IMG/VR virus record: IMGVR_UViG_3300049172_000088
Location: 1 to 64,000 of that record
DNA: 64,000 bases
Strand: one strand, 5' to 3'
DNA from: a virus
Lineage: Duplodnaviria > Caudoviricetes
The notes beneath the pieces were generated by a model, which was not told where the DNA came from, searched no databases, and was given only the letters and a program-made list of their open reading frames with translations. How positions within the stretch are numbered: position 1 is the stretch's first letter; every line of letters begins with the position of its first letter. A program made the translations under genes and the position numbers. Below are positions 1,915-53,434 of this stretch, in pieces.

Positions 1915-2145
1915 CTACTCGCGGGTGCGCTTCACCCTGCGGTAGTCCTGGCCATCGAGGGGCTCGACCTCATGCGCGCCGAACCAGACGGCGCGCGGTT
2001 CTTGGAGTCCGCCTCGGTAGCCTGGCGCGTCTTCGACGATCTCGACGAGGGCTTCCCATTGCCCGTTGGCCCGACGTCGCCACTCCAGGAGGCCGCCAGC
2101 TCCGGAGGGGTGGCTGGGTAGGCGGACGACGGGCGGTTCGGGCAT
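1915..2145 (-). CDS. Hypothetical protein, probably leaderless
   Basis: 76 aa; TACGCT (-10-like) lies 6 nt upstream of the ATG on the minus strand. Confidence 0.6.
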   Translation of the reverse strand: MPEPPVVRLPSHPSGAGGLLEWRRRANGQWEALVEIVEDAPGYRGGLQEPRAVWFGAHEVEPLDGQDYRRVKRTRE

Positions 2146-2210
2146 GGTGCAAGCGTACCCAGCGCTCGAACGCCCATTCGATTCAGGGGCTGACCTTGGT
2201 CTCCGAAATG

Positions 2211-2238
2211 CGAAAAGCCCGACGCTGTGGTCGGGCTT
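2211..2238 (-). terminator. Intrinsic terminator-like hairpin
   Basis: Minus strand AAGCCCGAC-CACAGC-GTCGGGCTT followed by TTCG. Confidence 0.6.
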
Positions 2239-2275
2239 GGAGACACGTCTCCTGGCGGGCAGTTTCTCACAAACC

Positions 2276-2497
2276 TCAGGCAGCGATCAACAACACCGCC
2301 ACCACGGCGTGCGCCTTCCGAAGTTGCTCGCCGTCGTACAACGCGGCCGGCCGCCCGCCGAACGGGCCAGGAGGCCGCTTCCCCACCGGCTGCAGGCCGG
2401 CCAGGGCGATGAGGGCGCGTACCTGGGCCACCGTCATGATGGGGTGCAACTCGGCGGCCGCATCCTCGACGGTCCACAGCTCACGTGGGATGTCCAC
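2276..2497 (-). CDS. Small winged-helix-like DNA-binding protein (late-regulator type)
   Basis: MDIPRELWTVEDAAAELHPIMTVAQVRALI...GRPAALYD, a pattern common before HNH/terminase in actinophages. Confidence 0.6.
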   Translation of the reverse strand: MDIPRELWTVEDAAAELHPIMTVAQVRALIALAGLQPVGKRPPGPFGGRPAALYDGEQLRKAHAVVAVLLIAA

Positions 2498-2550
2498 ACC
2501 TCCATGATGCCCGGCTCGGGCACGCGAGAGGCGTGCCCGAGCCTTCCCGG

Positions 2551-4146: not shown

Positions 4147-4152
4147 GACGCG

Positions 4153-4190
4153 ACGAGGCCCCTCTCCTGGATGGGTGAGAGGGGCCTCGT
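4153..4190 (-). promoter_or_regulatory. 14-bp perfect hairpin covering the rsr ribosome-binding region
   Basis: ACGAGGCCCCTCTC (4153-4166) pairs with GAGAGGGGCCTCGT (4177-4190); 10-nt loop; ends 6 nt before the ATG. Confidence 0.7.
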
Positions 4191-4200
4191 TCAAGAGTTC

Positions 4201-4331
4201 GCGCCCGAGATCGGAGTCGGCGACGGATACAGCTGCTCTGCCAATTGAGCTACGGACCCCAAGGATCCGACAGGACTCGAACCTGCAACCAGCCGATCGT
4301 CGGAAGTAGCCGTTGCCTGCGCACCGGGCGC
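4201..4331 (-). ncRNA. Y RNA, YrlA-type tRNA mimic (copy 2)
   Basis: Terminal stem CCCGGTGCGCAGGCAACGG...CCGTCGCCGACTCCGATCTCGGG encloses a T arm (GCAGG-TTCGAGT-CCTG), a loop-closed acceptor-like stem and a D arm (TAGCTCAATTGGCAGAGC), in permuted tRNA order. Confidence 0.88.
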
Positions 4332-4346
4332 GTCTCTGAAGTTGTC

Positions 4347-4490
4347 CCCTCCCGAGATCAAGGTCGGCGACGGACACGTAAGCGCTCTAGCCATCTGAGC
4401 TACCCACGCCGGTTAGGGCCTGGGGCAGGACTCGAACCTGCGACCTCTCGCTTACAAGGCGAAGTAACCGTTGCCTGCGCACCGGGAGGG
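4347..4490 (-). ncRNA. Y RNA, YrlA-type tRNA mimic (copy 1)
   Basis: Same 5' arm (CCGGTGCGCAGGCAACGGTTACTTC) and 3' arm (CCGTCGCCGACCTTGATCTCGGG); T arm GCAGG-TTCGAGT-CCTGC; D arm TAGCTCAGATGGCTAGAGC. Confidence 0.88.
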
Positions 4491-4505
4491 TGCGTTTCAA
4501 GTTGT

Positions 4506-4577
4506 GGGCTCAGAGATCGGGAGTGGGTCCGGCGTAGTTTCCCCCAAAGAAGTAGCCGGTCCCGTTCGCACCTGAGC
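4506..4577 (-). ncRNA. Short Y RNA lacking the tRNA-like domain
   Basis: GCTCAGGTGCGAACGGGACCGGCTACTTC...GCCGGACCCACTCCCGATCTCTGAGC shares GGTGCG, CTACTTC and GATCTC with the other two copies. Confidence 0.75.
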
Positions 4578-4778
4578 TGCCCTCAGGCTAGACCGAAAAG
4601 GAGGTTACGGGTCGCCGTTTTTCGGCCGGCGCGGGCTTTTCAGCAACCTGTGCCACATCGGCCCGCCGGGATGCGCGTGTCTGTCCGGGCTTGATCTGGC
4701 AGGGCATGCCTGAGGGCCGGAAGCGAGTTGGTGGGATGGCGGTCCCGGTCGCGTATCTGGCCCTCAGGGTTCGGGTGG

Positions 4779-4991
4779 TCACGTGCGTTCGCAGTAGTGC
4801 GAGTCGCCCTCGTCGTCGCCTGCGGCGTGGAACTCGATCCACGTAGTCGCGAGCTCTGGACAGCCCATCTCGGCGAGGAGGGCGGCCAGGGCCTCGACCT
4901 CGGAGCAGGTGAGCGCGGGGCCGATCTCGTCGGCGAGGTAGCCGGTCCAGTTCGAGACGAACGCGGTCGCGATCCTGTCCTTGATGATCAC
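4779..4991 (-). CDS. Hypothetical protein
   Basis: 70 aa; ALTCSEVEALAALL...WIEFHAAGDDEGDSH. Confidence 0.6.
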   Translation of the reverse strand: MIIKDRIATAFVSNWTGYLADEIGPALTCSEVEALAALLAEMGCPELATTWIEFHAAGDDEGDSHYCERT

Positions 4992-5055: not shown

Positions 5056-6186
5056 TCAGCGGCGGACCAGGGTCATGAGCCGCTTGTGGGCGGTGGTCTT
5101 GATGTCGTCGTCCGAGCCCTCCAGGAGGGCGGTGGCGCGGGCGATCTCCTCGGTCATGGTCTTGCCGGGGCGGCGGGGCGCGATGTGGTCGAGGTAGTCG
5201 GTAATCGCGCGTTCGGCGGCGTACGCGGTGCGGCCGAGGCGCTCGCTCTCGGCGCGGTACATGTCGGCGAGCTGCTCGCTGCGGCGGGTGGCGGCGTTCC
5301 GGGTCCGCACCGGTGCGTCGTCCTTGACCGGCCACAGGTCCGCGATGAGCTTCTCGACGTCGCGCATGGTGATCTCGGTCTGGGCGAGCAGGGTCTCCTC
5401 GGCCGCCCACTCCTCGTAGTACTCGACGGTCAGCCCGAGCGTGCGGCGGGCCTCGGCGATCCGGTCCATGGCGCTGGCGGTGTGGCGGACCTTCCACGTG
5501 CTGTGCGCGTCGCGGACGGCGAACCGCTCGGTGTTGGCGCACACGACCCGCCACGGGGTGACGAGAGCCTGCGCCGGGGAGCGGCCGTCGTGCCCGTTGA
5601 GCATGACCACGAACGGGACGATCTCGTCGTCGATCCCCTGCTCGTCGATCCGCACCGACTCGGGCAGCCTCATGGTGACGAACACCCGCTTGCCGCCCCG
5701 CAGCGCCCCGGCGCTCTCCCAGATGACGCCGTGGTCGGCCACGAGGTCCTGGAGGAACACGAACAGGTCGCGGTTCTGGATCACCTCGTACTTGCTGCCG
5801 ACGACGCCGAGGGCCGCGCCGGTGTCGGTGCGGACGGTCACGTGGTAGTCGGCGGCGGTGCGCAGCGACGGCGTGGTCTCGCCGTCGCCCATGAAGCTGT
5901 AGCGGACGTTGCGCTTCTCGACGCCGTAGGCGATGCCGCCGAGGCGCAGCACGTCGTCGATGTTGTCGGTCCCGCCGGGGATGACGTTGCCGAGGCCGTG
6001 CCACGCGGGCGTGCTGGTGTAGAGGGCGGCCTCGCCGAGGGTGGTGTCGAGCCCGTCGCGGCCGATCACCTCGTTCGCGTCGAAGCCGGTGCCGGTCCAG
6101 GTGCCGTCGTCACGGCGGACGCTGCCGAAGCGCTGCACGGCGGCGGCGCGCTGGTCGTTGAACTGCTGGTTGACATCGATCGTCAT
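5056..6186 (-). CDS. DUF932 family phage/plasmid protein
   Basis: PAWHGLG, LGVVGSKYEVIQN, WESAGALRGGKRVF, NGHDG, TPWRVVCANT, VRHT motifs. Confidence 0.9.
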   Translation of the reverse strand: MTIDVNQQFNDQRAAAVQRFGSVRRDDGTWTGTGFDANEVIGRDGLDTTLGEAALYTSTPAWHGLGNVIPGGTDNIDDVLRLGGIAYGVEKRNVRYSFMGDGETTPSLRTAADYHVTVRTDTGAALGVVGSKYEVIQNRDLFVFLQDLVADHGVIWESAGALRGGKRVFVTMRLPESVRIDEQGIDDEIVPFVVMLNGHDGRSPAQALVTPWRVVCANTERFAVRDAHSTWKVRHTASAMDRIAEARRTLGLTVEYYEEWAAEETLLAQTEITMRDVEKLIADLWPVKDDAPVRTRNAATRRSEQLADMYRAESERLGRTAYAAERAITDYLDHIAPRRPGKTMTEEIARATALLEGSDDDIKTTAHKRLMTLVRR

Positions 6187-6240
6187 AGCGATCTTCCTTC
6201 CGGTTGGCCGGGCGGCCGGATGCCGCCCGGCGAGGGGGTT

Positions 6241-6759
6241 TCAGACGATGGGGTCGCCGGGCGTCCAGCGGGCGGCGTCGTGGCCGTAGCCGTGGGAGGC
6301 GACCTCGCGGATCTCGGCGCGGATGCGTGCCAGGGCGGCGCGCTCGCGGTCGGCGCTCTCGCGGTCGAGGCGGAACGCGCCGGGCAGGTGGGTGAGGGTG
6401 TCGATGCGGTCGAGGCGGAAGCTGCGGGGCGCGCCTCTGAGGTGGTCCATCGCGCGGACGATCAGGTCGCCGTGTCGGGTGCGGAACAGCTCGTACGGCT
6501 CGATGGTGCGGGTGGTCCACTCGCCGTCCGCTGACACGTAGGTGATCATCACGGGCTGCTCGGCGGCGATCGCGTCCTCAAGTTCTTCGCGGGTCGCGGC
6601 CTGCTCGACGGGTGTGATGCTGGCGTGGCGGACGTTCGTCAGCGTGACCGGGCCACGGATCCTGTAGCGGTCCCCGTAGCAGGCCACGACGGTGAAGAAC
6701 TCGCCCTCGTACCTCTCGATGCTGCCGTGGTACTGGACCTCGGTGCCGATCTCGTACAC
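6241..6759 (-). CDS. WYL-domain protein with a short N-terminal beta domain
   Basis: AIAAEQPVMITYVSADGEWTTRTIEPYEL...AMDHLRGAPRSFRLDRI, the WYL signature; no obvious HTH. Confidence 0.85.
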   Translation of the reverse strand: MYEIGTEVQYHGSIERYEGEFFTVVACYGDRYRIRGPVTLTNVRHASITPVEQAATREELEDAIAAEQPVMITYVSADGEWTTRTIEPYELFRTRHGDLIVRAMDHLRGAPRSFRLDRIDTLTHLPGAFRLDRESADRERAALARIRAEIREVASHGYGHDAARWTPGDPIV

Positions 6760-6794
6760 CCCTGCTCACCTGCCCTTCTTCTCCTTCCATACTG

Positions 6795-6858
6795 AGCTTA
6801 CTATTGCTGATTGTCAATAGTTTAGCTATGCTGAGGTCAGCGGGTTTTATTGACAGGG
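6795..6858. promoter_or_regulatory. Divergent AT-rich promoter region with operator-like palindrome
   Basis: ACTATTG-N8-CAATAGT at 6800-6821; TATGCT and TTGACA elements; lies between the WYL gene and hicA. Confidence 0.55.
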
Positions 6859-6877
6859 AGCAAGAGAAAGAGGCATC

Positions 6878-7084
6878 ATGAGCCGCAGGGACATCACGAA
6901 GATCATCAGGGAGCTGGAACGGCAGGGATTCGAGGTCAAAATGGGCGGCTCAGGCCACTGGAAGGTCTACGACGCCGACGCCCACTTGATCGCCACCCTG
7001 CCCGCCACCCCGAGCGATCCTCGTGGTGTCCGCAACGTGCTGGCCGTACTACGGCGTGCCGGATTCACCTGGCCGCCGCGATGA
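6878..7084 (+). CDS. hicA: HicA-family toxin (dsRBD-fold mRNase)
   Basis: 68 aa; IIRELERQGFEVKMGGSGHWKV with the conserved G-H; TPSD.R...L..LRR.G. Confidence 0.85.
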   Translation: MSRRDITKIIRELERQGFEVKMGGSGHWKVYDADAHLIATLPATPSDPRGVRNVLAVLRRAGFTWPPR

Positions 7085-7614
7085 AGGGAACCCGCGCCAT
7101 GTGGAGCGTGCGCGTCGACGCCGACACCGGCCTCGACTTCGACGAAGAGCTCGGCGCGCACCTGCGGTGGCGCCTCGCCGACCGGCAGCCGGCCGCAGGC
7201 GCCGGCCATGTCGCCGGCCGCCTGGTGGCCGGCCGGGTCTCCGTACAGTTGAGCGTGAACGAGTCCTCCGCCCGCAAGGCGGTCGACGTGGCGGCCCGCG
7301 AGGTCGCGGCCGCCCTGCGCGAACATGGCCTGCAGCCCCACATTGTGCGCCTGGACGTGATGCCCGAGGAGGAGCTCGATGAGGAGCTCGACAAGACTCC
7401 GCCAGAGCTGATGGGCGTGCGGGAGATCGCCGCAGCGGTGGATCCGGACAACCCGATCAGCCGTCAGCGCGCCGATCAGCTGACGAAGCGCGACGACTTT
7501 CCCCAGCCGATCGCGGAGCTGGCGTCAGGAAAGGTCTGGTCGGGTGCCGCGGTGCGGCGGTGGCTGGCTACCTGGGAGCGCAAGAGCGGCCGGCCGAAGG
7601 CGTCGGCCGGTTGA
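7081..7614 (+). CDS. Probable antitoxin (HicB-like N-domain + C-terminal HTH)
   Basis: ATGA overlap with hicA; C-terminal LMGVREIA...SRQRADQL...FPQPIAELASGKVW DNA-binding motif. Confidence 0.65.
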   Translation: MKGTRAMWSVRVDADTGLDFDEELGAHLRWRLADRQPAAGAGHVAGRLVAGRVSVQLSVNESSARKAVDVAAREVAAALREHGLQPHIVRLDVMPEEELDEELDKTPPELMGVREIAAAVDPDNPISRQRADQLTKRDDFPQPIAELASGKVWSGAAVRRWLATWERKSGRPKASAG

Positions 7615-7615
7615 G

Positions 7616-8191
7616 CTACGACCGGGCGATCCGGTTGCGCTCGGCGAGGAACGACTCCTGCGCGCGGCGAAGCGCACGCTGATGGCGTCGACCGCCAGTC
7701 TGTGCGCCGATCAGTGCGAGGTCCCTCGCGGAGCCGGACAGGGCCGCATCGCCGGCGCGGCCTACCTCCATCGCGACCGCAGCGATTGCCTGCGCCAGGA
7801 CGGGCATCGCCTGGGCGACGGCCGCCGAGCTGGCCTGGTCCCAGCCGAAGACGGTCTGTGAGCACCGGCCGATGGCGGCGTAGGGCGTGCCGTGGACGAT
7901 GCGGGCTTCCAGTGCATGCGCGAGGGCAGTCAGGCCAACCATGGCCTTGGCTCGGGGGGATGTCCACGCCTGCGCCTGTGCGGCGATGGCACCTTGGAAG
8001 ACACCGACCGCGACGAGCAACTGGTCGCAGGCGGCGACCAACTGCTCGCGTTGATCGCTGTGGCGGTGCCGCCGGGCCCGCAGAAGTCCGATGAGAGCAC
8101 CGACGCCGGTGAGAATGCCGATGGTCGCAGCTACGGCAGGATCGAGCAGGTCGGCCCAGGCGAGGTTCACCGTCTCAGGGTGACTGCCCAT
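7616..8191 (-). CDS. Membrane-anchored hypothetical protein (moron-like)
   Basis: N-terminal hydrophobic segment AVAATIGILTGVGALIGLL; 191 aa. Confidence 0.55.
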   Translation of the reverse strand: MGSHPETVNLAWADLLDPAVAATIGILTGVGALIGLLRARRHRHSDQREQLVAACDQLLVAVGVFQGAIAAQAQAWTSPRAKAMVGLTALAHALEARIVHGTPYAAIGRCSQTVFGWDQASSAAVAQAMPVLAQAIAAVAMEVGRAGDAALSGSARDLALIGAQTGGRRHQRALRRAQESFLAERNRIARS

Positions 8192-8231
8192 GGGTGCTGA
8201 TCATGGGGCATTCCGCAAGATGAGCTCGGCT

Positions 8232-8513
8232 TCAAGTCCGCCTTCCCCGGCCGGGGAAGTCCTCGCGGTCGATGTAGGGCTCGGTGAGGAGGTCGAGGAT
8301 GGCCCTGCCCATGGTGGCCTCCTTGCCGGTCCGGTCGAGCGCGTTTTCGCATTCGAGGAGGATCTTGCGCTTGGCCACGATGTCGGCGAGCAGGCGGTCT
8401 CCGTGCTCCTGGAAGTAGCGGTAGATGACCTTTTGATTCATGATTCGGTCGAGGGTGGCTTCCTCTTCTTCCCAGCGCTGGGTGAGGTAGTTGGCGATGG
8501 TGACGAACTCCAC
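8232..8513 (-). CDS. DUF6221-like protein
   Basis: YLTQRWEEEE...RLLADIVAKRKIL...ILDLLTEPYIDREDF; start codon uncertain. Confidence 0.6.
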   Translation of the reverse strand: MEFVTIANYLTQRWEEEEATLDRIMNQKVIYRYFQEHGDRLLADIVAKRKILLECENALDRTGKEATMGRAILDLLTEPYIDREDFPGRGRRT

Positions 8514-8687
8514 GTCGCTCCCCTGGTCCGTACTGAGGTGCCGTTCGCTCCTTTGCGACCCCCGACGCACGGATGCACCTTTCGTTCTTTTCGCACCCTC
8601 CGATACTCCGCGCCCCTCCGTCAAGTTCTGTGGGTAACAAGCGCGCTACAGATCGTGCGCGCAGGCTGGCCATGCTCCCGCCGGGAA

Positions 8688-9479
8688 TCACCGGTCTCCC
8701 GCGTAGCGATAGACGCGCACTCCGTCGTCGTCCACCGACGCTGTTGGCTCGTAGGTGGGATGGCTCACCGGCGCGAGCGGATCGAAGTCGGGGCTGTCGA
8801 GCGTGGCCCAGGGCGTCACCGGGGGCATCCGCCAGAGCGATGGCCACTCATTCCCGAAGGTGACCCGCTGCCCATCATGGGGGCCGCCGACCAGCCTGCC
8901 CACGTTCGGCTGGACGTCGTAGAGGTGGTCGAGCCTCACAGCGTCCCCTCCCTCATGACGTTGCCCTTGTGATCGATGACCTGCCAGGCGCCCGCCTCCA
9001 GGTTCTCGTTCAGCACGATGGGCACGCCGAACAGCGATCCGCCGGGCGGTGGCGGCGTCCATCCGATCGGCCGCCACGCATCCTCAGGCGCGGGCCCTTC
9101 GTGCTGGGCGGTGGCCTTGAGCCAGTCGAGCACGGCCTGGCCGACCTCGACGCGGGCCACCGGCGGTGGCTCGGGTAGGCGCCGGGCCAGCTCAAGGATC
9201 TGGGCGAGGATGTCGCTCACGGCCGCAACTCTTCTGGCAGGTTGGTGCGCAGCCAGAGCTCGCAGGCGGCGCACAGGTCGAGCCAGCGCGGGCCACCTCG
9301 GGCCTCCACCTGGACCGCACGATGTAAGCGCACATCGCCCGCTGGCCACAGCGCAGACAGGAGTGCACCTCATCGCGGCACCGGTGCTCGATGTGCGCGC
9401 CGTCGGCATCCTCGGGTGCCGGGGACAGCAGGGTGGGCTCAACGGCGAGGAGGGTCAGCATACCCTCGACGGTGCTCAC
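8688..9479 (-). CDS. Three small overlapping hypothetical ORFs (8688-8939, 8936-9220, 9192-9479)
   Basis: Coupled starts and stops; protein-like sequences (LVGGPHDG; SLFGVPIVLNE; CLRCG). Confidence 0.55.
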
Positions 9480-10279
9480 GGCTTCCAGTCCTCCCGGTAG
9501 TCACTCAGCGTGTCCTCGGCCTTATCCAACCTGGTGACGTGCCTTCGAAGATCGATCAGCCAGCGCTGTCCGTCCTCGTCGGTGAACTCCACCGTGGGGG
9601 CATGCGCGGCAAGGTTTTCACGGCTCAGGCCTGGCCGCGCGAAGCATGCCGTGCCCTGGGGTGCGAGATAGGGCCACGAGCTTCCGGATCCGAGCGCCAC
9701 GTCCCCCATGGCCCAGCCGTAGAGGGCGAGCACCGAGCCGAAGCGGACCGTGAGGTCCGTGATGGGGCTTGAGCCTCGGTTCTCGATGCGAAGGCATGTC
9801 GACGGCCAGGTGGACTCCCCCGTGTTCTGCATGTCTGTCAGCAACCTGGCGAAGGGAGTCAGTGCAGAATCCTGGTGGTGAGGGACGGTGAAGGTCGACA
9901 GATACACCTGCCGAGCACGGTGCAGTTGCGCTTGCCGCCGCTGCTCGCGCTGCTCTTCAAGGTGTTCTTGGAGACGACGATCGGCAGCTTCGCGTTCCTC
10001 CAGCAGCCGCTGCTCAGCCTCCATCCGTTCATGCTCGCGGAGCTTGTCGTCCCGCCTGCGATCGCTTTCGCGTCGACGACCGTCCACGATCAGATTGACG
10101 ATGGCGATGGCGAGCGCGGCCACGACGGCGAGCAACGTCCCCCATCCCTGCATTTGGTCGTAGATAAGCGAGTCATCCGGCTTGGGGGTGTGAGTGACCG
10201 TGACGGTGACTGTCGGCTGGGGCGTGCCGGCGCTTCCTAAGATCTTCCCCGTGCTTGGGAACGAGAGGGGGATGGTCAC
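9476..10279 (-). CDS. Membrane-anchored coiled-coil moron protein
   Basis: TM segment WGTLLAVVAALAIAIVNLIV, then a charged coiled coil; atypical codon usage; ends DYREDWKP. Confidence 0.6.
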   Translation of the reverse strand: MTIPLSFPSTGKILGSAGTPQPTVTVTVTHTPKPDDSLIYDQMQGWGTLLAVVAALAIAIVNLIVDGRRRESDRRRDDKLREHERMEAEQRLLEEREAADRRLQEHLEEQREQRRQAQLHRARQVYLSTFTVPHHQDSALTPFARLLTDMQNTGESTWPSTCLRIENRGSSPITDLTVRFGSVLALYGWAMGDVALGSGSSWPYLAPQGTACFARPGLSRENLAAHAPTVEFTDEDGQRWLIDLRRHVTRLDKAEDTLSDYREDWKP

Positions 10280-11693: not shown

Positions 11694-11757
11694 GTACCTG
11701 CCGAGCCGCGACGAGCCCCACCCTGACCTGCCATGCCGAGCCATGCCCAGCCGTGAA
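11694..11757 (-). ncRNA. Orphan pentamer-repeat guide (vrRNA-like) unit
   Basis: Intergenic; 10 pentamers (11703-11752) followed on the minus strand by GGCA-GGT; same grammar as the main array. Confidence 0.7.
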
Positions 11758-37999: not shown

Positions 38000-38110
38000 G
38001 GTGGTTGTCCTTCCGGTTGAGGGGTGGAGCGATAAGGTTGGGGCGCCGGATGTCCTTCCGGCGGGTCCGGGCTGGTCGCACAGCCCGGACCATTTGCGTG
38101 CTGGAGCAGG

Positions 38111-38656
38111 TCAGACGGTGTAGCCGCCGTTCCAGTCCCAGCTCTTCTTGGCCAGCTCGACACCGGTCGACGTGGTCACCCACGCCGTGTCGTTGTTGTT
38201 GTTGTAGAACTGGCCAGCGGTGCCGCAGTCGGGGTCCGAGTTGGCGTACAACCGGTACTCGGTGCCGACCTTGTAGTTGCCGCCCCACCTGGCACCGTTG
38301 AAGACCGTGACGCTCTCGCCGTTCGCCAGCTCGGTGCTGGTGCCGGGCCCGGGGAGGTCGGTGATCTTGTAGGTGTTGCAGGAGTGGGCGTCGCCGTCCG
38401 CGGTGCGGCTGTGCGCCCAGTCGTCCTCGACCAGCACGTTCGCGATGTCGAGGGTCACGCCGGAGACGTTCTTGAACGTGACGAACTCGCGGTTGCGATT
38501 GCCCACGGTGTCGGTGCCCATGGCGTCGGTGCCGACCCGCACGATCTGGAGCTGGCCGGCGGTGGGCGCCGGAGCGGCGCTGGCCGACGTGGCGGACGCG
38601 ATGCCGGTCAGCATCAGCGCCAGGGCGCCCATGAGGGCGATGAGGGTCTTCTTCAT
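38111..38656 (-). CDS. Secreted lamin-tail-domain-like protein
   Basis: Signal peptide MKKTLIALMGALALMLTG...ASA; NREFVTFKN...LANGESVTVFNG...YNNNNDTA. Confidence 0.7.
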   Translation of the reverse strand: MKKTLIALMGALALMLTGIASATSASAAPAPTAGQLQIVRVGTDAMGTDTVGNRNREFVTFKNVSGVTLDIANVLVEDDWAHSRTADGDAHSCNTYKITDLPGPGTSTELANGESVTVFNGARWGGNYKVGTEYRLYANSDPDCGTAGQFYNNNNDTAWVTTSTGVELAKKSWDWNGGYTV

Positions 38657-38732
38657 CTCGATCTCTCTGTGAGGTTGGGACCGGTGACCCGGCCATGTGC
38701 CGCCCCATCTGGAGCGGACGTTCAGGGCCCGC

Positions 38733-38933
38733 TCAGGCGGGCAGCGCGGCGCGGCGCCGTCGGCGGGCCGCCGCCAGGAACGCGCGGGCGGCCGACCGGC
38801 CCTCGCGGGCGAACGCGGCAGCGGCGGACTGGTGGTTGCGCTTGTGCCAGATCCGGCGCCGCTGACGCGCAGTGATCTGGCTGCGGCCGGTCTGCGCGAA
38901 GTAGCGGGAGGCGCGGTCGAACTCGTCGAGCAT
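38733..38933 (-). CDS. Small basic hypothetical protein
   Basis: 66 aa; ITARQRRRIWHKRNH. Confidence 0.55.
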   Translation of the reverse strand: MLDEFDRASRYFAQTGRSQITARQRRRIWHKRNHQSAAAAFAREGRSAARAFLAAARRRRRAALPA

Positions 38934-38945
38934 CGGGTGGTCCTC

Positions 38946-39158
38946 TCAGGCGGCCTGTTGAGCGGGGCGGATGTACGGGGCGAGGAGCGCGGCCAGGCGA
39001 GTGCACTGCTCCTCGGTGAGGGGCGGATCGTGCTCGCCGTCGCGCCAGCCGGCCTCGAAGGCTTGCTGCGGCGTGGTGCAGATCTCCTGCCTGCCACGCC
39101 CCGCCGCACCGAGACGCGCCTTGCCGTACCGCGCCGGGCCTGGGTCGTTAGTGGTCAC
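38946..39158 (-). CDS. Small phage protein whose 5' part overlaps an orphan guide unit
   Basis: ICTTPQQAFEAGWRDG..DPPLTEEQC.RLAALL; GTGA overlap with the upstream gene. Confidence 0.6.
   Translation of the reverse strand: MTTNDPGPARYGKARLGAAGRGRQEICTTPQQAFEAGWRDGEHDPPLTEEQCTRLAALLAPYIRPAQQAA
39087..39140 (-). ncRNA. Orphan pentamer-repeat guide (vrRNA-like) unit
   Basis: 9 pentamers (39096-39140) followed by GGCA-GGC on the minus strand. Confidence 0.72.
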
Positions 39159-39577
39159 GCCGCGTCCTCACCGACGTCGCGGCGGACCATGGCGTAGAAC
39201 TCGGAGAACTGCTCGTAGCGACGCCGGAGGGCCTTCCATTCGCGCTCCATGTCCTTGAGCAGGAGCTGCGCCGTGAACGGGTCCGTGGTCACCTTGTCCA
39301 CGGGCTCGTACACGTGGCCCTTCTCCGACCGAACGGCGTGGAACGCGCGCACGCTCTGCTCGGGGTTCTTCTCGTCGGCCTCGCGGTAGACGATCCGAAC
39401 CGACCGGATGAGCTGGTGCGCCTGCTCGCGTCGCCACGCCTCGCCGGCGACCGCGTCGTTCCACTCGAACCGGTCGTGCAGCGGGTGCTGCTCGTCGCGA
39501 GCTTCGTCCACCACCAGGGCGGGCGTGAGCTGCGCGTGCCGGTCGTAGATGGCCTGGAGCTGCTCTCGGAGACTCAC
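39155..39577 (-). CDS. Accessory protein coupled to the RAMP-like gene
   Basis: 140 aa; LTPALVVDEARDEQHPLHDRFEWND..AGEAWRREQAHQLIRSVRI; GTGA overlap with the upstream gene. Confidence 0.8.
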   Translation of the reverse strand: MSLREQLQAIYDRHAQLTPALVVDEARDEQHPLHDRFEWNDAVAGEAWRREQAHQLIRSVRIVYREADEKNPEQSVRAFHAVRSEKGHVYEPVDKVTTDPFTAQLLLKDMEREWKALRRRYEQFSEFYAMVRRDVGEDAA

Positions 39578-40206
39578 GAGCTGAGGACCTCCACTTCGCG
39601 GGTCGGGTCGATCTTGTAGGTGCCGAAGTCGCCGTCCCGCTCCGGCCGCCACTCGCCGACGCCGACGCCCATGCCGCCAGCGTCGATCAGCGACAGGACA
39701 GAGCCGCGGGTGAGGGCGGAGGTGACGTAGGTGACTTCCAGGACGGCGGACCACTCGCGGAACTCGGGCCGGTACCTGAGGTCGGTGCCGCCGCGGCCGA
39801 CGGTGACGACGTCCTCGCGCATCTGGGCCTCGCCGTCGATGCGGGTGAGGGCGCGGCCGTCGTCGCCGACCTCGCCGCCGAAGAACAGGAACTGCTTGAG
39901 GGCGGTCATGGTGACGCCGGAGTAGAAGCGGGCGCCGCCGATGGTGGCGGCCTTGAACGCGATCGACGGGAAGCCGGGCGAACCGTCCTTGAGCCGGTAG
40001 TAGGCGGCCTCGTACTCGGCGTGCGGGTCCTTCGGCTGCTTGGGCGACTTGCGGCCCTGCATCGCGTCGAGCATGGCCTTTTTGGCCTTTTCGGAGAATC
40101 TGTGGACGATCAGAGGCGTTGTGCCCACGATCGGGACAGAGATCGTTTCCGCCGCGATCCGGTCAATCTGGACGATCGCGTCGTCCGACTTTCGGGCAGC
40201 ACACAT
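39574..40206 (-). CDS. Cas7/RAMP-like protein (Vipr-like)
   Basis: 210 aa from ATG 40206 with a GAAAGG RBS. Has a beta strand + G.TPL start (IVGTTPLIVH), GFPSIAFKAA, LRYRPEF..W, and a C-terminal Gly-rich loop (GGMGVGVGEWRPERDGDFGTY) as in RAMP proteins. Confidence 0.8.
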   Translation of the reverse strand: MCAARKSDDAIVQIDRIAAETISVPIVGTTPLIVHRFSEKAKKAMLDAMQGRKSPKQPKDPHAEYEAAYYRLKDGSPGFPSIAFKAATIGGARFYSGVTMTALKQFLFFGGEVGDDGRALTRIDGEAQMREDVVTVGRGGTDLRYRPEFREWSAVLEVTYVTSALTRGSVLSLIDAGGMGVGVGEWRPERDGDFGTYKIDPTREVEVLSS

Positions 40207-40238
40207 TGCGCTAACCTTTCGATGAGAAGTGAGTGATG

Positions 40239-40270
40239 GGGTCCGGACGCCGTGCAGGGCGACCGGACCC
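40239..40270 (-). terminator. Hairpin between the array and the RAMP-like gene (terminator or processing site)
   Basis: GGGTCCGG (40239-40246) pairs with CCGGACCC (40263-40270). Confidence 0.5.
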
Positions 40271-40282
40271 TTCTTCATGCGT

Positions 40283-41323
40283 GGGCCGCGCCTGCCATGA
40301 CGGGCCATGCCGAGACGTGCGGAGCCGCAACAGGACGAACCGCGCCTGCCCTGCCAAACCCAGCCGTGCCTAGTCCCGCCGTGACATGCCGGACCGCACC
40401 ACACCGAGCCATTCCTGCCACGCCAAGCGACGCCAAGACCCGCCCTGACAAGACGAGCCGTGCCGAGCCATGCCTGCCGTGCCGCGCGATGCTGTGACGG
40501 ACCTAGACGGACCGCGCCAAGACCCGACTGCCGGGCCACGCCTTGACTAGCCGAGACCAGACCCGCCATGTCCTGCCTGCCGTGCCATGCGGAACCTAGC
40601 CGGGACACACCACAACAAGCCCCGCCTTGCCGCGCCTGACAAGCCGGGCCGCACCATGCGGAGCCGAGCGGAGACTTGCCACGCCACACCGTGCCTGCCG
40701 GACCTGGCCATGACTGGCCGCGCCTCGCCGGACCTCGCCTCGCCACGCCTGCCGAACCACGCCGTGCCCGAACGTGACAAGCCCTGCACAGAACAACCGC
40801 GCCTGCCACGCCAAGCCACGCCAAGCCCGACCGGGACCTGACTGGACATGCCGCGCCATGCCATGACTGCCAAAGCTGGCCGTACGGCGCCACGCCGTGA
40901 CTAGCCCTGACCCGCCAAACCGGGCCTGCCGAACCGTGCGATGCCGAACCAAGCCCGGACACGCCCCGCCGAACCCCGCCTGCCACGCGAAGCCATGACC
41001 AGCCGCGCCGCGACGAGCCCTGCGAAGCCATGCCTGCCAAGCCAGGCCACACCCTGCCTGGCCGAACCGCGACCTGCCACTCCGCGCCTGCCAAGACAAG
41101 CCAAGCCCCGCCGAGCCGAGACCCGCCGGACCGAACCACGCCTGCCATGACGGGCCAAGCCGTGACCTGCCGGGACTTGCCCAGCCTTGCCTGCCTCGCC
41201 ATGCCTGAACTAGCCCAGCCCGAACATGCCCCACCCCGCCAGGACTGCCTCACCACACCAAGCGGAACCCCGCCGAGCCCGGCCACATCTCGCCTGGACC
41301 GGCCAAGCCTGACCATGCCTGCC
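40283..41323 (-). repeat. Pentamer-repeat guide array: 18 units of 9-14 x (GGY/GTC)NN with GGCA separators
   Basis: Parsed by hand: 191 pentamers + 18 tetramers = 1027 bp, exactly 40297-41323. One more GGCA and 2 pentamers lie at 40283-40296. Confidence 0.93.
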
Positions 41324-41445
41324 ACGTTGATCGTCAGAAGGCTCTTCCTGGCGTTGCAGTTGCGGCACCGGCCGCGCCAGCTCTCGTTCGAGGAGTAGCA
41401 CTTGCCACAGGTCCACGGCGGCTGCTTCGGCGGCTGCGGCGTCAC
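41324..41445 (-). CDS. RanBP2-like zinc-finger ORF 5' segment reading into the array
   Basis: WTCGKCYSSNESWRGRCRNCNARK; GTGA overlap with cro; the frame stays open through the array. Confidence 0.5.
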
Positions 41446-41714
41446 GCTGCACCCGCCTCAGCCTGGGTCTCCTCCGCCGGCTCCCCGTAGGGATTCGCGA
41501 GGATGGCGCGGCGGTCGGTGATGCCCAGTGCCCGCAGCATCGCGGTGAAGACCGTGGGGCTTACGTGGGTCCGGCTCCCCAGTTCGACGTGGGCCAGGTA
41601 GGCCCTGCTAATTCCGATGAGGTCGGCGCACGCCTGGGTTTTGATCCCGCTGCGTACTCGGATCTCTCGGAACGCGGGTCCGTTGACCGCGACCATCGTG
41701 GGGGTTCTGGGCAT
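41442..41714 (-). CDS. Cro-like XRE HTH regulator
   Basis: FREIRVRSGIKTQACADLIGISRAYLAHVELG; divergent from the repressor. Confidence 0.85.
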   Translation of the reverse strand: MPRTPTMVAVNGPAFREIRVRSGIKTQACADLIGISRAYLAHVELGSRTHVSPTVFTAMLRALGITDRRAILANPYGEPAEETQAEAGAA

Positions 41715-41891
41715 GCCAGAAGTTTAGGCACAGCTTGCCACAGCTTTCAACAGCTTCCTCTAGAAACATTTATAGCTGTGCCATGTGGCGGCAAGGTAAG
41801 GGTTTTGTGGCATGCATCAGGGCTTATGTCTCACTGGGTAAGTCTGGAGATGTGCTTACCTGTGTCAGGGTGTGTCTGTCATGCTGTCTCC
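41715..41891. promoter_or_regulatory. Lysis/lysogeny divergent promoter-operator region
   Basis: AT-rich; ACAGCTT three times at an exact 10-bp period (41730, 41740, 41750); inverted AGCTGTGC at 41774-41781. Confidence 0.7.
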
Positions 41892-42380
41892 ATGGACAGA
41901 GAGACAGCCCGACAGGCGCTCGCCGAACGAGTGCGCCGCAGGCGACTCGCTCTCGGTTGGTCCATCGACGAAGCCGCCGAACGGGGCAGCATGAGCCCCA
42001 CCACGTGGACACGCGTCGAAGAGGCCAAGAAGGTACGCGACCTCACCTACGCAGGCATCGAACGCGCGCTCGGCTGGCAGCCCGGCAGCGTCGACCAGAT
42101 CGCCGAAGGAGGCGAGGCAAAGGAGGCGGAAGGCCTCCAAGGCATCGTCCGCTTCACCGGAGAGCAAGCCCTTCAGGTCGCCAGGCAGCTACCGCCGGCC
42201 GCGCTTCACGAGATCCTCTCGGAGCAGATCGATCCCCAGCTCCGGAAAATCATCGACTCCTGGTCGCTGCTACAGCCGTGGCAGCGGAACATGGTGCACG
42301 GCGTGCTGGAGCAGATTCTCAGCCAATCCCCCGAAACGGCAGGTAAACCGACACGAACCGAGGAGCGTCGCACAGGGTAA
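41892..42380 (+). CDS. Immunity repressor (XRE HTH)
   Basis: LAERVRRRRLALGWSIDEAAERGSMSPTTWTRVE...IERALGWQPGS. Confidence 0.85.
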   Translation: MDRETARQALAERVRRRRLALGWSIDEAAERGSMSPTTWTRVEEAKKVRDLTYAGIERALGWQPGSVDQIAEGGEAKEAEGLQGIVRFTGEQALQVARQLPPAALHEILSEQIDPQLRKIIDSWSLLQPWQRNMVHGVLEQILSQSPETAGKPTRTEERRTG

Positions 42381-42430
42381 CAAACACGTCACAACTGCAT
42401 GCGAGGGCTGGAAAGTGACGCCCGTGGAGC

Positions 42431-42922
42431 GTGCTATGGATGCCGACGCCTGGGACGCACACCACCTCAACGGGGAGGCGCACAGCACCCATGCAACACA
42501 GGCACCAAGGGCCCGCGGGGGTCGGGCTCACAGCAGAACAGCTCGCCACCACCATCCAGCAGCGCGCACGTCGCGCCGCCACGGCCGCCCTCTGGGTCAG
42601 CCGGGCGACCGGACTGGTGGAGCAGCTGCAGGCCGAGAACGCCGACCTGCGCCAGGAAGTCATCTACTACCAGCGCTGGGCGGCGTCCACCATCGGCCTC
42701 CAAACGAACGAGACACCGCCGCAGCACTACGTCGAAGCGCTACGACGCGCTCAGCCTGAGCCGTACAGGAGCGTCAACGTCGACGTCGACGGCCAGCCCT
42801 ACAGCGCCGCCCTGGGCCAGCACCCCGAGACGGCGCCGGACCCCCTACGCGAGCTGGCCTGCTGGCAGGCTCTGGTGACGGCCGTACGGGCAACCCGCGC
42901 CGCCCTGGCAGCCGAGGCATGA
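42431..42922 (+). CDS. Hypothetical protein in the repressor operon
   Basis: Coiled-coil LVEQLQAENADLRQE; start uncertain; overlaps the next gene. Confidence 0.5.
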   Translation: MLWMPTPGTHTTSTGRRTAPMQHRHQGPAGVGLTAEQLATTIQQRARRAATAALWVSRATGLVEQLQAENADLRQEVIYYQRWAASTIGLQTNETPPQHYVEALRRAQPEPYRSVNVDVDGQPYSAALGQHPETAPDPLRELACWQALVTAVRATRAALAAEA

Positions 42923-43749
42923 TCGCCCGACTGCCCCGGATCGTCTACCAGGACTTAGCCGACAATCAGGAGTACATTCTCGGCGAAACCGACGACGGCC
43001 GGCCGCTCATCATCATCTCCGCCGCACTCGACGAGCCAGGCCGCAAGAGGGCCCGCAGGGCCGCGATGGCCGAGTTACGGCACCGCCGCGGAATGGCCGC
43101 AGGCCTGCTTTTACTCATCACCGGGGCCGCCGCCGCTACGTCTGAGCGGGTCCAGGGATGGCTACGCACTCCGTTCGGTGCCGCCGTCGCCGCCAGCGCG
43201 ATGACCGGCGTGGTAGCAGTCGGCGTCACCGAGATAAGGCGAGTCGAACCACCCACGGCCGCACCGCCGCCAGTCGTGGTCACCGTCCGAGAGGTTCCCC
43301 CGCCGGCCGCCTCCAGCACCCGCTCCCCCATCCCGTCGGAGCGGTCCACCCGCACGCAACCTCCCGAGCCTCCCGCCGACGCCCGCGGCGACCCAGGAGG
43401 CGAGCTGCCCGCCAGGCCGACTCCGGCCGCTACCCCTCCACGAGCGGACGACCCGCCCACAAGGCAGTCGTCACGCACGCCCTCGCGCACAGCACCGGCC
43501 AGCATGCCAGTCGCCTCCGAGTCCGAGGTGGAGGAGAGCACCAACGAGTCGACCGCCACTCCATCCAGCCCGCCACCCGCGGCCGACGACGAGGCTACGA
43601 CACAGGCCACAGACGATCAGCCGGACACCCCGCCGGCCACGAGTGCGCCACCGCCATCGCCCGCCGCTATCCCTGACGACTGCGATGGGATTGGGCTAGA
43701 CGTGGAGATCGACCCGCTGCTTGGAGTGAACGCCTGCCTGCTCGGGTGA
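42919..43749 (+). CDS. Membrane protein with a Pro/Thr-rich extracellular tail; three TTA codons
   Basis: Two hydrophobic segments and a long P/T/S-rich region; in-frame TTA at 42955, 43075 and 43111. Confidence 0.7.
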   Translation: MIARLPRIVYQDLADNQEYILGETDDGRPLIIISAALDEPGRKRARRAAMAELRHRRGMAAGLLLLITGAAAATSERVQGWLRTPFGAAVAASAMTGVVAVGVTEIRRVEPPTAAPPPVVVTVREVPPPAASSTRSPIPSERSTRTQPPEPPADARGDPGGELPARPTPAATPPRADDPPTRQSSRTPSRTAPASMPVASESEVEESTNESTATPSSPPPAADDEATTQATDDQPDTPPATSAPPPSPAAIPDDCDGIGLDVEIDPLLGVNACLLG

Positions 43750-45174
43750 CAAGGGAAGCGGGATGAGGTCGACGCTGGCCGGGTCGAAGCCGGGCCCGCG
43801 CTTCGTCTGCGGGAGGATGATCACGCGGTAGAGGGCCCGGACGGTGTCGGCGCGCACGTCGATCGGGGTGGCGTCCCACTGCTCGCGGGTGATGCCCGCC
43901 ATGCGGACCAAGAGCCGCTGGCGGGCATTCTCCACGTGCCGGTTCCGCAACTCGGTGATCTTCTTGTCGAACGAGGCGATGGACGCGGCCACGTCGGCGA
44001 CGTCGAGGCCGGGATGGTCGGCGAGGTTCCGTAGGGTCTGTTTCGTGTCGGCCTTGCGCCGCTCCAGGGCGACGATCTCGGCCGCCACGCCTGGCTCCGG
44101 CCCGAGGACCATCGACAGCAGGTCTGGGTCTTGCAGCCGTCGCAGTACTCGCCCCGTCACATACTCGTCGAGGTGGACGAGGCTCCGGGACACCTTCTTG
44201 GAGCACTCCGGGTTGTTGCAGTGGTAGAGCCGCATATCCTTGCGGCCGCGACGGCCGTTGGCGGGCTTCGTCCGGACGCCGACGCTGCAGGAGACGCACT
44301 CGGCGACGCCGCTGAGGAGGTAGATGCGTTCCTTGCCGTAGGCGTGGGCGCCGTTCTCCTCGAGGAGGCCCTTCAGGGTCTCCCACTCCTCACGGGATGC
44401 AGCGGCAGGCCAGATGGCCGGGACAAGCTGGCCGTTGCGCTGGATGAGGCCGGCGATCCTCGGCGACCGGATGATCTTCTTGAAGACGACCGCCCGCCAT
44501 CGGCCGCCCTCAGTCGTGGTGGACACGGAGTTCAGCCAGCGGATCACTCCGGCCAAGCTCTGCCCTCCGAGCAGGCGCTGGAGTCCGTCGCACAGGATCG
44601 GGAACTCGGTGGGATGGGCCTGGTTCGTGTCGTAGATCGGCTTTCCGCTGATGCCCGTCTTGCCGGTGGGCACGCCGTAGCCGAAGGGCCGCTTCCCGCC
44701 GCTCCAGGCCTCCCCCTTGGCTGCCTTGGCGTCCACGCCGCGTTTCACCCGGCGCGAGGTGCTCGCCGACGACTTGCACGCCTGCGCGACCTCGATGCGC
44801 AGGATGAAGCGATCGTCTTCGCTGGCGAGGTCACGCACGCCCTGGGGGGACGCGAGCGCGATCGATCGGTCGTCGGCGAGCTTGAGTAGCTTCTCCAGGT
44901 CCCATGGCTGCCGGATCAGGCGGTCGCCGTGCCAGACGAGCACGCCGTCCACCTCACCGCGCTCGATTGCGTCGAGGAGCCTGTCCCAGGCCGGCCTCTT
45001 GCGGTTACGCTGCCAGGCAGAGCGGGAGTTGTCCTTGTAGATGTGGCGTTCGTCGATGGGCCAGGCGAGGCGGTCGGCAAGCTGGCGGCAGTCCTCCTCT
45101 TGCCGCTCAACCTTCTCCACTGATCCATCGGGCGCGTAGCTGAGCCTGCAGTAGATCGCAGCGGATTTCGGCAT
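43696..45174 (-). CDS. int: Large serine recombinase (integrase)
   Basis: AAIYCRLS (catalytic Ser), YKDNSRSAW, DRLIR, recombinase domain, and a zinc ribbon (LLSGVAECVSC...YHC). Confidence 0.95.
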   Translation of the reverse strand: MPKSAAIYCRLSYAPDGSVEKVERQEEDCRQLADRLAWPIDERHIYKDNSRSAWQRNRKRPAWDRLLDAIERGEVDGVLVWHGDRLIRQPWDLEKLLKLADDRSIALASPQGVRDLASEDDRFILRIEVAQACKSSASTSRRVKRGVDAKAAKGEAWSGGKRPFGYGVPTGKTGISGKPIYDTNQAHPTEFPILCDGLQRLLGGQSLAGVIRWLNSVSTTTEGGRWRAVVFKKIIRSPRIAGLIQRNGQLVPAIWPAAASREEWETLKGLLEENGAHAYGKERIYLLSGVAECVSCSVGVRTKPANGRRGRKDMRLYHCNNPECSKKVSRSLVHLDEYVTGRVLRRLQDPDLLSMVLGPEPGVAAEIVALERRKADTKQTLRNLADHPGLDVADVAASIASFDKKITELRNRHVENARQRLLVRMAGITREQWDATPIDVRADTVRALYRVIILPQTKRGPGFDPASVDLIPLPLSPEQAGVHSKQRVDLHV

Positions 45175-53310: not shown

Positions 53311-53434
53311 TAGGCTGAGGGTGTTCGTGGTTCGGCACGGCCTGGTGCGGTCCGGCGTGTCTAGGCTGGTCATGGCTTGGCACGTCCCGGCAGGCGAGCC
53401 CAAGGCGGGCGGGGTCAGGGATCCTGCCCGCCTT
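53311..53434 (+). ncRNA. Stand-alone pentamer-repeat guide gene (vrRNA-like) with its own promoter and hairpin
   Basis: TAGGCT (-10-like) at 53311; 12 pentamers at 53329-53388; GGCA-GGC; hairpin AAGGCGGGC...GCCCGCCTT at 53402-53434. Confidence 0.82.

What the first reader, a model, noticed from the sequence alone, without database searches (positions are those of the whole stretch)
40283..41323. Indel-free pentamer array of 18 guide-like units
On the minus (early-transcript) strand the sequence is GGCA[(GGC/GGT/GTC, occasionally CGC or GTT)NN]n. In plus-strand order the units contain 10,13,11,10,9,11,11,10,10,12,11,10,10,10,10,9,10,14 pentamers. Separators are 17 GGCA and 1 GTCA. 191x5 + 18x4 = 1027 bp = 40297-41323 exactly. 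The triplets are constrained while the NN positions are free and about 51% A+T (196/382 by hand count) in a roughly 70% GC genome. All 18 NN strings differ. This is an information-bearing array, not a microsatellite. GGCA probably marks unit 3' ends or processing sites.
Basis: seen in the sequence. Interest (0 to 1): 0.95.

Follow-up and report, generated by a model that had tools for sequence, protein, structure and literature searches.

The report
Phage VIPR guide-RNA array
The 1-kb five-letter repeat is real and is a guide-RNA array of a VIPR system, a CRISPR-like, RNA-guided gene silencer of phages first described in 2026 preprints; it is a new example rather than a new kind, but one guide spells a core motif of the bacterial Gabija defence gene and another a core motif of rival phages' head protease.

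Summary
On the minus strand, 41323 to 40297 holds 18 blocks of 9-14 pentamers (191 in all, G[G/T][C/T]NN). The blocks are separated by 17 GGCA and 1 GTCA, with no indel.

It is the vrRNA array of a VIPR system (bioRxiv 10.64898/2026.04.26.720920, .720927 and 2026.10.15.759431):
- The gene just downstream (39574-40206, minus) is a Vipr protein. Its profile matches PDB 36pp, SUSP1 Vipr, at E 7e-14. The model has a Cas7/Csm3-like fold, and the GGY-contact residues are conserved.
- A conserved 140-aa partner gene follows it.
- Thirteen of 16 related loci carry the same kind of array, including Gordonia phage UmaThurman and Mycobacterium cluster F phages.
- The GGCA punctuation fits the published "staggered, 1-nt overlapping" array type.

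Under the published NNx rule, two guides have clear targets:
- U11 matches the VEEPEAH(L/I)HP motif of Gabija gajA, 20/20 inside a defence island.
- U15 matches the VAIVGYGANP motif of prohead protease genes in at least 120 high-GC viral contigs.

No guide targets the phage itself. The other 16 guides and 3 solo units remain unassigned, though only some were scanned in public collections.

This scan has already reported VIPR loci in about 200 other genomes. Expression is untested.

The parts
40283..41323 (-). vrRNA array. It holds 18 units (U01-U18) of 9-14 G[G/T][C/T]NN pentamers, each closed by GGCA (one GTCA). There is a leading GGCA at 41320-41323 and a closing GGCA at 40293-40296, followed by two extra pentamers.
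   Evidence: Parse; null tests.
40700..40749 (-). Unit U11, with NN = GT GA GA CC GA GC CA AT CA CC. Read as NNx it spells V[D/E][D/E]P[D/E]A[H/Q][I/M][H/Q]P, the Walker-B-side motif of Gabija GajA / OLD-family ATPases.
   Evidence: 13/13 IMG/VR hits are in phase in AAA_15/AAA_21/OLD-TOPRIM genes. In 121 genomes there were 18 hits against 6 control hits. The match is 20/20 in a gajA gene at L045:6874-6902.
40479..40528 (-). Unit U15, with NN = GG TT GC CC TA CC AC AT GC AC. Its reverse complement, read as NNx, spells VA[I/M]VGYGA[K/N]P of Peptidase_S78 prohead proteases.
   Evidence: The hit genes are PF04586 and phrog_80/7053.
39574..40206 (-). vipr gene: a 210-aa RAMP (Cas7-like) protein that should coat the vrRNA at one protomer per pentamer.
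   Evidence: phrog_4652. PDB 36pp SUSP1 Vipr at E 6.7e-5 alone and 6.9e-14 with a profile. AF2 pLDDT 82; Foldseek top hits are Csm3/Cas7 subunits.
39155..39577 (-). vap-like accessory gene: a 140-aa protein whose start overlaps the end of vipr.
   Evidence: phrog_15946. A homologue lies beside vipr in 16/16 related loci. AF2 pLDDT 90, with only weak winged-helix-like fold matches.
39091..39140 (-). Solo vrRNA unit (9 pentamers + GGCA GGCA) just downstream of the accessory gene.
53329..53393 (+). Solo vrRNA unit (12 pentamers + GGCA) far from the locus.
11698..11752 (-). Solo vrRNA unit (10 pentamers + GGCA).
40239..40270 (-). G+C-rich hairpin (8+4 bp, -25.6 kcal/mol) between the array and vipr. 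It is a possible 3' stabiliser or terminator of the array transcript. A near-identical stretch stands at the same place in L004.
41324..41445 (-). Small ORF with an exact RanBP2-type zinc-ribbon spacing (W-x-C-x2-C-x3-N-x6-C-x2-C). It has no stop of its own, and its frame stays open through the array into vipr.
   Evidence: It was not found in any related locus, so it is not a conserved part of the system.
41442..41714 (-). cro-like HTH gene, first gene of the operon that carries the array. A promoter-like site lies at 41721-41750 (minus), and a divergent repressor-like HTH gene at 41895-42380 (plus).

Best explanation
The array encodes about 18 VIPR guide RNAs (vrRNAs) of a temperate actinobacterial phage.

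Inferred steps. The array is transcribed from the early lytic promoter, together with the cro-like gene. Vipr protomers bind one per pentamer, holding each G-G/T-Y triplet and exposing the two N bases. The 4-nt GGCA step shifts the register by one base, so it ends one filament and starts the next (the published "staggered, 1-nt overlapping" array type). The result is RNAs of 49-74 nt.

Shown for SUSP1 in the preprints, inferred here. Each RNA-protein filament binds double-stranded DNA whose sequence matches NN-x-NN-x..., skipping every third base, and blocks transcription.

Shown here by sequence. U15 is aimed at the prohead protease gene of rival high-GC phages. U11 is aimed at gajA of the Gabija defence system. 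No guide matches the phage's own genome.
For: (1) The pentamer anatomy is exact and far beyond chance.

(2) The adjacent 210-aa protein is a Vipr homologue. Its profile matches PDB 36pp_D at E 6.9e-14 over residues 16-198. The model has a Csm3/Cas7-type RAMP fold. The SUSP1 residues that hold GGY (H17, R138, D177, W178, R179; paper .720927) align with H35, R146, E185, W186, R187, which are invariant or nearly so in 15 homologues.

(3) Vipr, a 140-aa partner and an array co-occur in loci with 36-93% Vipr identity, though the gene order varies.

(4) Units have 9-14 repeats here and a mode of 10-11 over 154 units. The published range is 9-16.

(5) Arrays that lie downstream of the genes have stops in all three frames, so the repeat is not a coding repeat.

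(6) The NNx rule gives codon-phased exact targets for U11 and U15.

(7) No self-target rises above the shuffled-guide null, as the paper reports for its own systems.

(8) The phage's own S78 protease has a different sequence at the U15 site, matching at most 11/20.
Against: - No RNA data exist, so transcription, processing at GGCA and loading onto Vipr are inferred.
- 18% of the triplets are GTC, which departs from the published GGY.
- The structured 3' tail of type II vrRNAs is absent.
- 16 of the 18 array guides and all 3 solo units have no assigned target.
- One reading frame is open through the whole array (0 of 7 stops).
- The accessory protein could not be matched to a named vap family.
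Confidence: 0.93

Rival explanations
1. The array is translated. The 623-aa ORF (41445->39574) would be a real fusion or low-complexity protein, and the pentamer pattern would be a by-product.
For: The frame continuous with the zinc-ribbon ORF has 0 of the 7 stop codons in the array and runs in frame into vipr. The related array in L004 also has one open frame, with 0 of 11 stops. Public annotations call such arrays hypothetical proteins: UmaThurman gene 40 and BobaPhett gene 51.
Against: A 5-nt period with 4-nt steps cannot be held by selection on codons, because every unit changes phase. Arrays in L005-L008 and L016 have 3-11 stops in every frame. The window and L004 arrays share units, so they are not independent cases. 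The open frame alone has a chance probability of about 6%. The open frame could also merely keep ribosomes on the transcript and protect it from polarity, without the product mattering.
Confidence: 0.03
2. The element works at the DNA level. It could be a G-rich non-template strand that forms R-loops (as in immunoglobulin switch regions), or a binding array or origin, rather than a source of guide RNAs.
For: There is strong G/C strand asymmetry (G 448 vs C 278 on the sense strand). The array lies in the early operon near the immunity switch.
Against: This does not explain why NN strings are kept between phages while the scaffold triplets vary. It does not explain why NN strings read out gene motifs in codon phase. 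It does not explain the strict link with a Vipr gene.
Confidence: 0.02
3. Some units, especially the solos, are not weapons of this phage's own Vipr. They would be decoys or redirecting guides acting on rival VIPR systems, as shown for satellite solo vrRNAs.
For: Paper 2026.10.15.759431 shows solo vrRNAs that redirect a rival's Vipr. This genome has three solo units away from the array.
Against: The phage has its own vipr beside the main array. No guide matched vipr genes or arrays in 238 kb of related loci above the null.
Confidence: 0.1

Closest known systems
VIPR systems with "staggered" vrRNA arrays (bioRxiv 10.64898/2026.04.26.720920, fig. S18 legend)
   Same: A Vipr RAMP gene, an accessory gene and tandem GGY/NN pentamers. 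Neighbouring vrRNAs overlap by 1 nt, so the end of one marks the start of the next. Here the final pentamer GGCAG shares its G with the next unit.
   Different: I could read only the figure legend, not the figure or data tables. Identity of architecture and VIPR type (I-VII) is therefore not settled. Here 18% of the triplets are GTC rather than GGY.
Type II VIPR of Escherichia phage SUSP1 (PDB 36pp; bioRxiv .720920, .720927, 2026.10.15.759431)
   Same: A homologous Vipr with conserved GGY-contact residues. Units of 9-14 repeats. The NNx one-base-skip code falls on codon wobble positions. Encoded by a phage. Solo vrRNAs are present.
   Different: SUSP1 vrRNAs are about 100 nt, with a structured 3' tail and pseudoknot, and number four. 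Here 18 units are joined by only GGCA. Vipr identity is low, so a profile was needed. The hosts are high-GC Actinobacteria.
Class 1 CRISPR backbone (Cas7/Csm3 filament on crRNA)
   Same: RAMP fold (Foldseek E about 1e-5, TM about 0.5). One protomer per fixed step of the RNA, with periodically unpaired bases.
   Different: There is no repeat-spacer array and no cas1/cas2 or other cas genes. The step is 5 nt with only 2 pairing bases, and the target is read with a 1-nt gap.

Membership tests
VIPR system | A Vipr protein (minimal RAMP) is encoded next to the repeat RNA. | tested here: met
   Window 39574-40206(-): phmmer against PDB 36pp_D gives E 6.7e-5. A profile of 15 homologues gives E 6.9e-14 over 183 residues.
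VIPR system | RAMP fold (RRM core, G-loop, thumb). | tested here: met
   AF2 pLDDT 82, pTM 0.79. The top 50 Foldseek PDB hits are Csm3/Cas7/Cmr subunits, best E 1.6e-5. 36pp itself is not in the fold library.
VIPR system | Residues that hold GGY in SUSP1 Vipr (H17, R138, D177, W178, R179). | tested here: met
   They align with H35, R146, E185, W186, R187. These are invariant or at least 90% conserved in alignment A1. One conservative change, D to E. Residue roles are taken from paper .720927.
VIPR system | vrRNA made of 9-16 tandem GGY/NN pentamers with variable NN. | tested here: met
   9-14 per unit. 131 of 191 triplets are GGY; 35 are GTC, 10 CGC and 5 GTT. The paper allows "a related consensus" in some types.
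VIPR system | Conserved, structured 3' tail after the repeats (type II). | tested here: not met
   Only GGCA separates the units. This fits the staggered array class instead, so it argues against type II but not against VIPR.
VIPR system | Accessory vap gene beside vipr. | tested here: inconclusive
   A 140-aa partner is conserved in 16/16 loci. No Pfam or PDB sequence match was found. Only weak winged-helix-like fold matches, E >= 0.5. It could not be compared with vap1-6.
VIPR system | Targets obey the 1-nt skip rule (NNx), mostly with the skip on the codon wobble base. | tested here: met
   U11: 13/13 IMG/VR hits and 10 of 12 genome loci are in phase. U15: 120/120 in phase. The other guides are unassigned.
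VIPR system | No self-targeting at 80% NN match or better. | tested here: met
   The best self matches of all 21 guides fall within the shuffled-guide null. Two solos reach p of about 0.02, which is not significant for 21 tests.
VIPR system | vrRNAs are expressed, processed and bound by Vipr; the complex silences transcription. | not testable with these tools
   The only run that holds the sequence is a soil-metagenome DNA run.
CRISPR-Cas | Repeat-spacer array with cas1/cas2 adaptation genes. | tested here: not met
   There is no CRISPR-type repeat in or around the locus. The only RAMP gene found at the locus is the lone vipr. The rest of the genome was not scanned specifically for cas genes.

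The most novel reading that the evidence does not exclude
Part of this array is an RNA-guided anti-defence weapon. Guide U11, kept in a related Nonomuraea prophage with one letter changed, is matched to the most conserved motif of Gabija gajA and related OLD-family ATPase genes. The wobble-skipping code would therefore cover many alleles, and the phage (or prophage) would silence Gabija-type defence genes of the host or of resident elements. The main texts of the VIPR preprints that I searched do not mention this target class.
Probability: 0.4. Interest if true: 0.65.

Novelty: new member of a known kind. Interest (0 to 1): 0.5.

Why it matters
- It places VIPR, so far tested mainly in E. coli and Pseudomonas elements, in temperate phages of high-GC Actinobacteria. 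These include well-studied Gordonia and Mycobacterium cluster F phages, where the arrays are annotated as hypothetical proteins.
- It gives two concrete, testable guide-target pairs. One follows the published theme of inter-phage conflict (the head maturation protease of rival phages).
- The other suggests that phages may also use VIPR against a bacterial defence system (Gabija). That would add RNA-guided silencing to the known anti-defence strategies.
- The pair of homologous guides that differ by one letter, each matching a natural variant of the motif, is a small example of guides tracking their target.

Tried and rejected
- **Rfam:** no family matched in 38000-44000.
- **Early ideas:** a TRAP-like ring-binding RNA, two-tetrad G-quadruplexes, an R-loop origin and pentapeptide-repeat coding were set aside once the Vipr link was found.
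- **Self-targeting claims in other first-reader notes** (8/12, 7/10 and 14/18 matches to the phage's own genes): the best self matches of all guides lie inside the shuffled null.
- **Targets among 238 kb of related VIPR loci:** none above the null.
- **U01 and U06:** U01 with up to 3 mismatches gave no hit in 151 family genomes. U06 with up to 2 mismatches gave none in 121.
- **U08, U17 and U03:** no hit in five gajA-bearing genomes.
- **IMG/VR exact scans:** the U08 consensus, the U06 core and U10 gave 0 hits. The U03 consensus gave 3 hits and U18 gave 1, both at chance level and not coherent.
- **Metagenome scans:** U10 gave 0 hits. U06 gave 3 unrelated low-GC hits.
- **U12:** the 18/22 hit is out of phase with stops in frame, so it is taken as chance.
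- **U10:** 17/20 on one recurring motif (DTGRENLQLA) in 3 rival contigs is suggestive only.
- **U11 in the hosts of the related prophages:** hits in the two genomes were not above control.
- **RNA evidence:** no RNA holder was listed, only one soil-metagenome DNA run.
- **Accessory protein fold search:** no significant match.
- **Zinc ribbon as a conserved RNA-binding partner:** it is absent from all related loci.

Full report
**1. Observation**

Read on the minus strand, 41323 to 40297 parses without any indel into 18 separators (17 GGCA, 1 GTCA). The 18 blocks hold 14,10,9,10,10,10,10,11,12,10,10,11,11,9,10,11,13,10 pentamers, 191 in all.

Position 1 of the pentamer is G in 177 of 191, position 2 is G or T in 187, and position 3 is C or T in 189. 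Positions 4 and 5 use all four bases and are 196/382 A+T, in a window that is 69.7% GC.

The parse score is 272. A first-order Markov null gives -215 +/- 15, and no other 1027-bp window of the genome exceeds -221.

A 19th GGCA at 40293-40296 closes the last unit.

**2. Context**

The genome is an 83.7-kb virus record from a soil metagenome, 93% complete by CheckV.

The array lies in the leftward early operon of an immunity switch. In order of transcription:
- a repressor-like HTH gene, 41895-42380 (plus), divergent from the operon
- a promoter-like site, 41721-41750 (minus)
- a cro-like HTH gene, 41442-41714 (minus)
- a 40-codon zinc-ribbon ORF
- the array
- a -25.6 kcal/mol hairpin, 40239-40270
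- a 210-aa gene, 39574-40206
- an overlapping 140-aa gene, 39155-39577

**3. What it is**

*The protein.* The 210-aa protein belongs to phrog_4652. Its only match among solved structures is 36pp, "SUSP1 Vipr protein" (E 6.7e-5). A profile of 15 homologues raises this to E 6.9e-14 over nearly the whole length. The AlphaFold model (pLDDT 82) matches Csm3/Cas7 RAMP subunits of type III, VII and I CRISPR complexes.

*The literature.* Three 2026 preprints describe VIPR:
- A lone RAMP protein, Vipr, polymerises on vrRNAs made of 9-16 GGY/NN pentamers, one protomer per pentamer.
- Vipr hides the GGY triplets and exposes the NN letters.
- The NN letters pair with double-stranded DNA while skipping every third base.
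- The complex silences transcription.
- The systems are mostly phage-borne and come in seven types.
- Some types have "staggered arrays" in which neighbouring vrRNAs overlap by 1 nt.

The GGCA step seen here is exactly such a one-base register shift, because GGCAG shares its last G with the next GGC.

*Contact residues.* The SUSP1 residues that hold GGY (H17, R138, D177, W178, R179) align with H35, R146, E185, W186, R187. All are invariant or nearly so in this clade.

**4. Relatives**

Similar arrays lie beside homologues of both proteins in these loci:
- Gordonia phage UmaThurman, where the array is annotated as gene 40
- Mycobacterium cluster F phages such as BobaPhett, where part of the array is gene 51
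- prophages of Thermoactinospora rubra and a Nonomuraea species (89-93% Vipr identity)
- nine of twelve IMG/VR contigs

Gene order varies: array-vipr-partner, vipr-partner-array, or vipr-array-partner.

Over 154 units, the modal length is 10-11 pentamers.

Arrays that lie downstream of the genes have stops in all three frames, so the repeat is not a coding repeat.

The window array and its Nonomuraea relative share four units among otherwise different ones. In the six homologous unit pairs compared across L003, L004 and L007, the NN letters are 91% identical, while the scaffold triplets swap freely among GGC, GTC, GGT and CGC. This is the opposite of what a simple repeat would show.

Solo units in this genome and in the relatives carry GGCA only at their 3' side.

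**5. Targets**

I applied the published rule (NN joined by one wildcard, both strands) with shuffled-guide nulls. No guide matches the phage's own 83.7 kb, or 238 kb of related VIPR loci, beyond chance.

*U11.*
- The pattern, with one position that varies between relatives left open, gave 13 exact matches in IMG/VR. All are in codon phase and all read [V/L/I]V[E/D]EP[E/D]AH[L/V]HP.
- The genes are AAA_15/AAA_21 ATPases, mostly with an OLD-type TOPRIM domain. PADLOC calls them GajA, and some are AriA- or NsnB-like.
- In 121 genomes of the family of the Nonomuraea host, there were 18 matches with at most one mismatch, against 6 for the backwards control. Ten of the 12 fetched loci carry the motif in phase. 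Five of seven tested are GajA at E 1e-174 to 1e-226, and one is NsnB.
- The window's own version of the guide is a 20/20 match to VEEPEAHIHP in a gajA gene. That gene is followed by gajB and preceded by a Druantia druE gene.
- The Nonomuraea version differs by one letter and is a 20/20 match to a TTG-leucine variant.

*U15.*
- All are in phase on the complementary strand and read HRGD-VAIVGYGANP, near the C-terminus of Peptidase_S78 prohead proteases.
- The phage's own S78 protease (genome 79229-80164) has a different sequence there and matches at most 11/20.

*The rest.* The other guides I could scan gave nothing convincing. Exact-match scans miss targets with one or two mismatches, so this is weak negative evidence.

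**6. Mechanism, and what is shown**

Shown here:
- the anatomy of the array
- the homology and fold of Vipr
- the conserved partner gene
- the co-occurrence of array and genes across phages
- conservation of the NN letters
- two codon-phased target motifs
- the absence of self-targets

Taken from the preprints: filament assembly, the skip rule and silencing.

Inferred for this locus:
- transcription from the early promoter
- breakage into units at GGCA, either by the register shift ending each filament or by trimming of unprotected RNA
- silencing of rival phages' protease genes and of gajA

A caveat on U11: silencing a constitutively expressed defence gene after infection would act slowly. 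The benefit may instead arise in lysogens or against incoming elements that carry Gabija. The two host genomes of the related prophages have no U11 site above control.

**7. Oddities**

- GTC makes up 18% of the triplets, so the second position tolerates T in this clade.
- One frame is open across the whole array and joins the zinc-ribbon ORF to vipr. The same holds in the related L004 array. This may be chance, about 6% for the window. It may also keep ribosomes on the transcript so that vipr, which lies downstream, is still transcribed.
- The zinc ribbon has an exact RanBP2 spacing, but it is weak in Pfam (E 0.004) and absent from all relatives.

**8. Novelty**

The kind is known from the 2026 preprints. 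A fourth preprint recovers VIPR arrays from entropy periodicity. This scan has already reported VIPR loci in about 200 genomes, some with claims of defence-gene targets.

This locus is a new member. It is large (18 units plus 3 solos), actinobacterial and of the staggered type, with two well-supported targets.

The Gabija target is not mentioned in the main text of the two preprints I searched for it. I could not read their data tables.

Noticed in passing
L001:2780-3103 (Gordonia phage UmaThurman gene 40) and L002:3052-3216 (Mycobacterium phage BobaPhett gene 51): These annotated "hypothetical protein" genes lie inside GGCNN pentamer arrays with GGCA punctuation. The neighbours gp39/gp52 are Vipr homologues (phrog_4652), and gp41/gp53 are homologues of the 140-aa partner. 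VIPR loci therefore seem to be present, and mis-annotated, in Gordonia and cluster F mycobacteriophages.
   Followed up: partly
window 41324-41445 (-) and on to 39574: A RanBP2-type zinc-ribbon ORF has no stop codon. Its frame stays open through the 1-kb array and into vipr, giving a 623-codon ORF. The related array in L004 also keeps one frame open, whereas arrays placed after the genes do not.
   Followed up: partly
window 39091-39140 (-), 53329-53393 (+), 11698-11752 (-): Three solo guide units lie outside the array, each ending in GGCA. No target was found. A first-reader claim that the 39-kb solo matches the neighbouring gene is not above the shuffled null (16/20; 37 of 200 shuffles do as well).
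   Followed up: partly
G000 79229-80164 (-), outside the window: The phage's own Peptidase_S78 prohead protease reads ...FEAGPVTWPAS... where the rivals targeted by U15 read ...GDVAIVGYGANP.... The phage therefore escapes its own guide.
   Followed up: yes
L045 (G113:C33:55000-67810): A defence island in a genome of the Nonomuraea family holds a Druantia-type DruE helicase (168-4829), gajA (5938-7902) and a gajB split into two ORFs (7899-8738, 8776-9744).
   Followed up: partly
L074:3014, L132:5411, L108:2829: Guide U10 matches 17/20, in phase, a recurring motif (DTGRENLQLA) in three of the rival contigs that carry the U15 site. This may be a diverged second target in the same phages. Exact scans found nothing.
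   Followed up: partly
window 40239-40270 (-): A strong hairpin lies between the array and vipr, and a near-identical stretch stands at the same place in the Nonomuraea prophage (L004). It is followed by a GAAAGG ribosome-binding site for vipr. Its role (terminator, processing site or stabiliser) is unknown.
   Followed up: no
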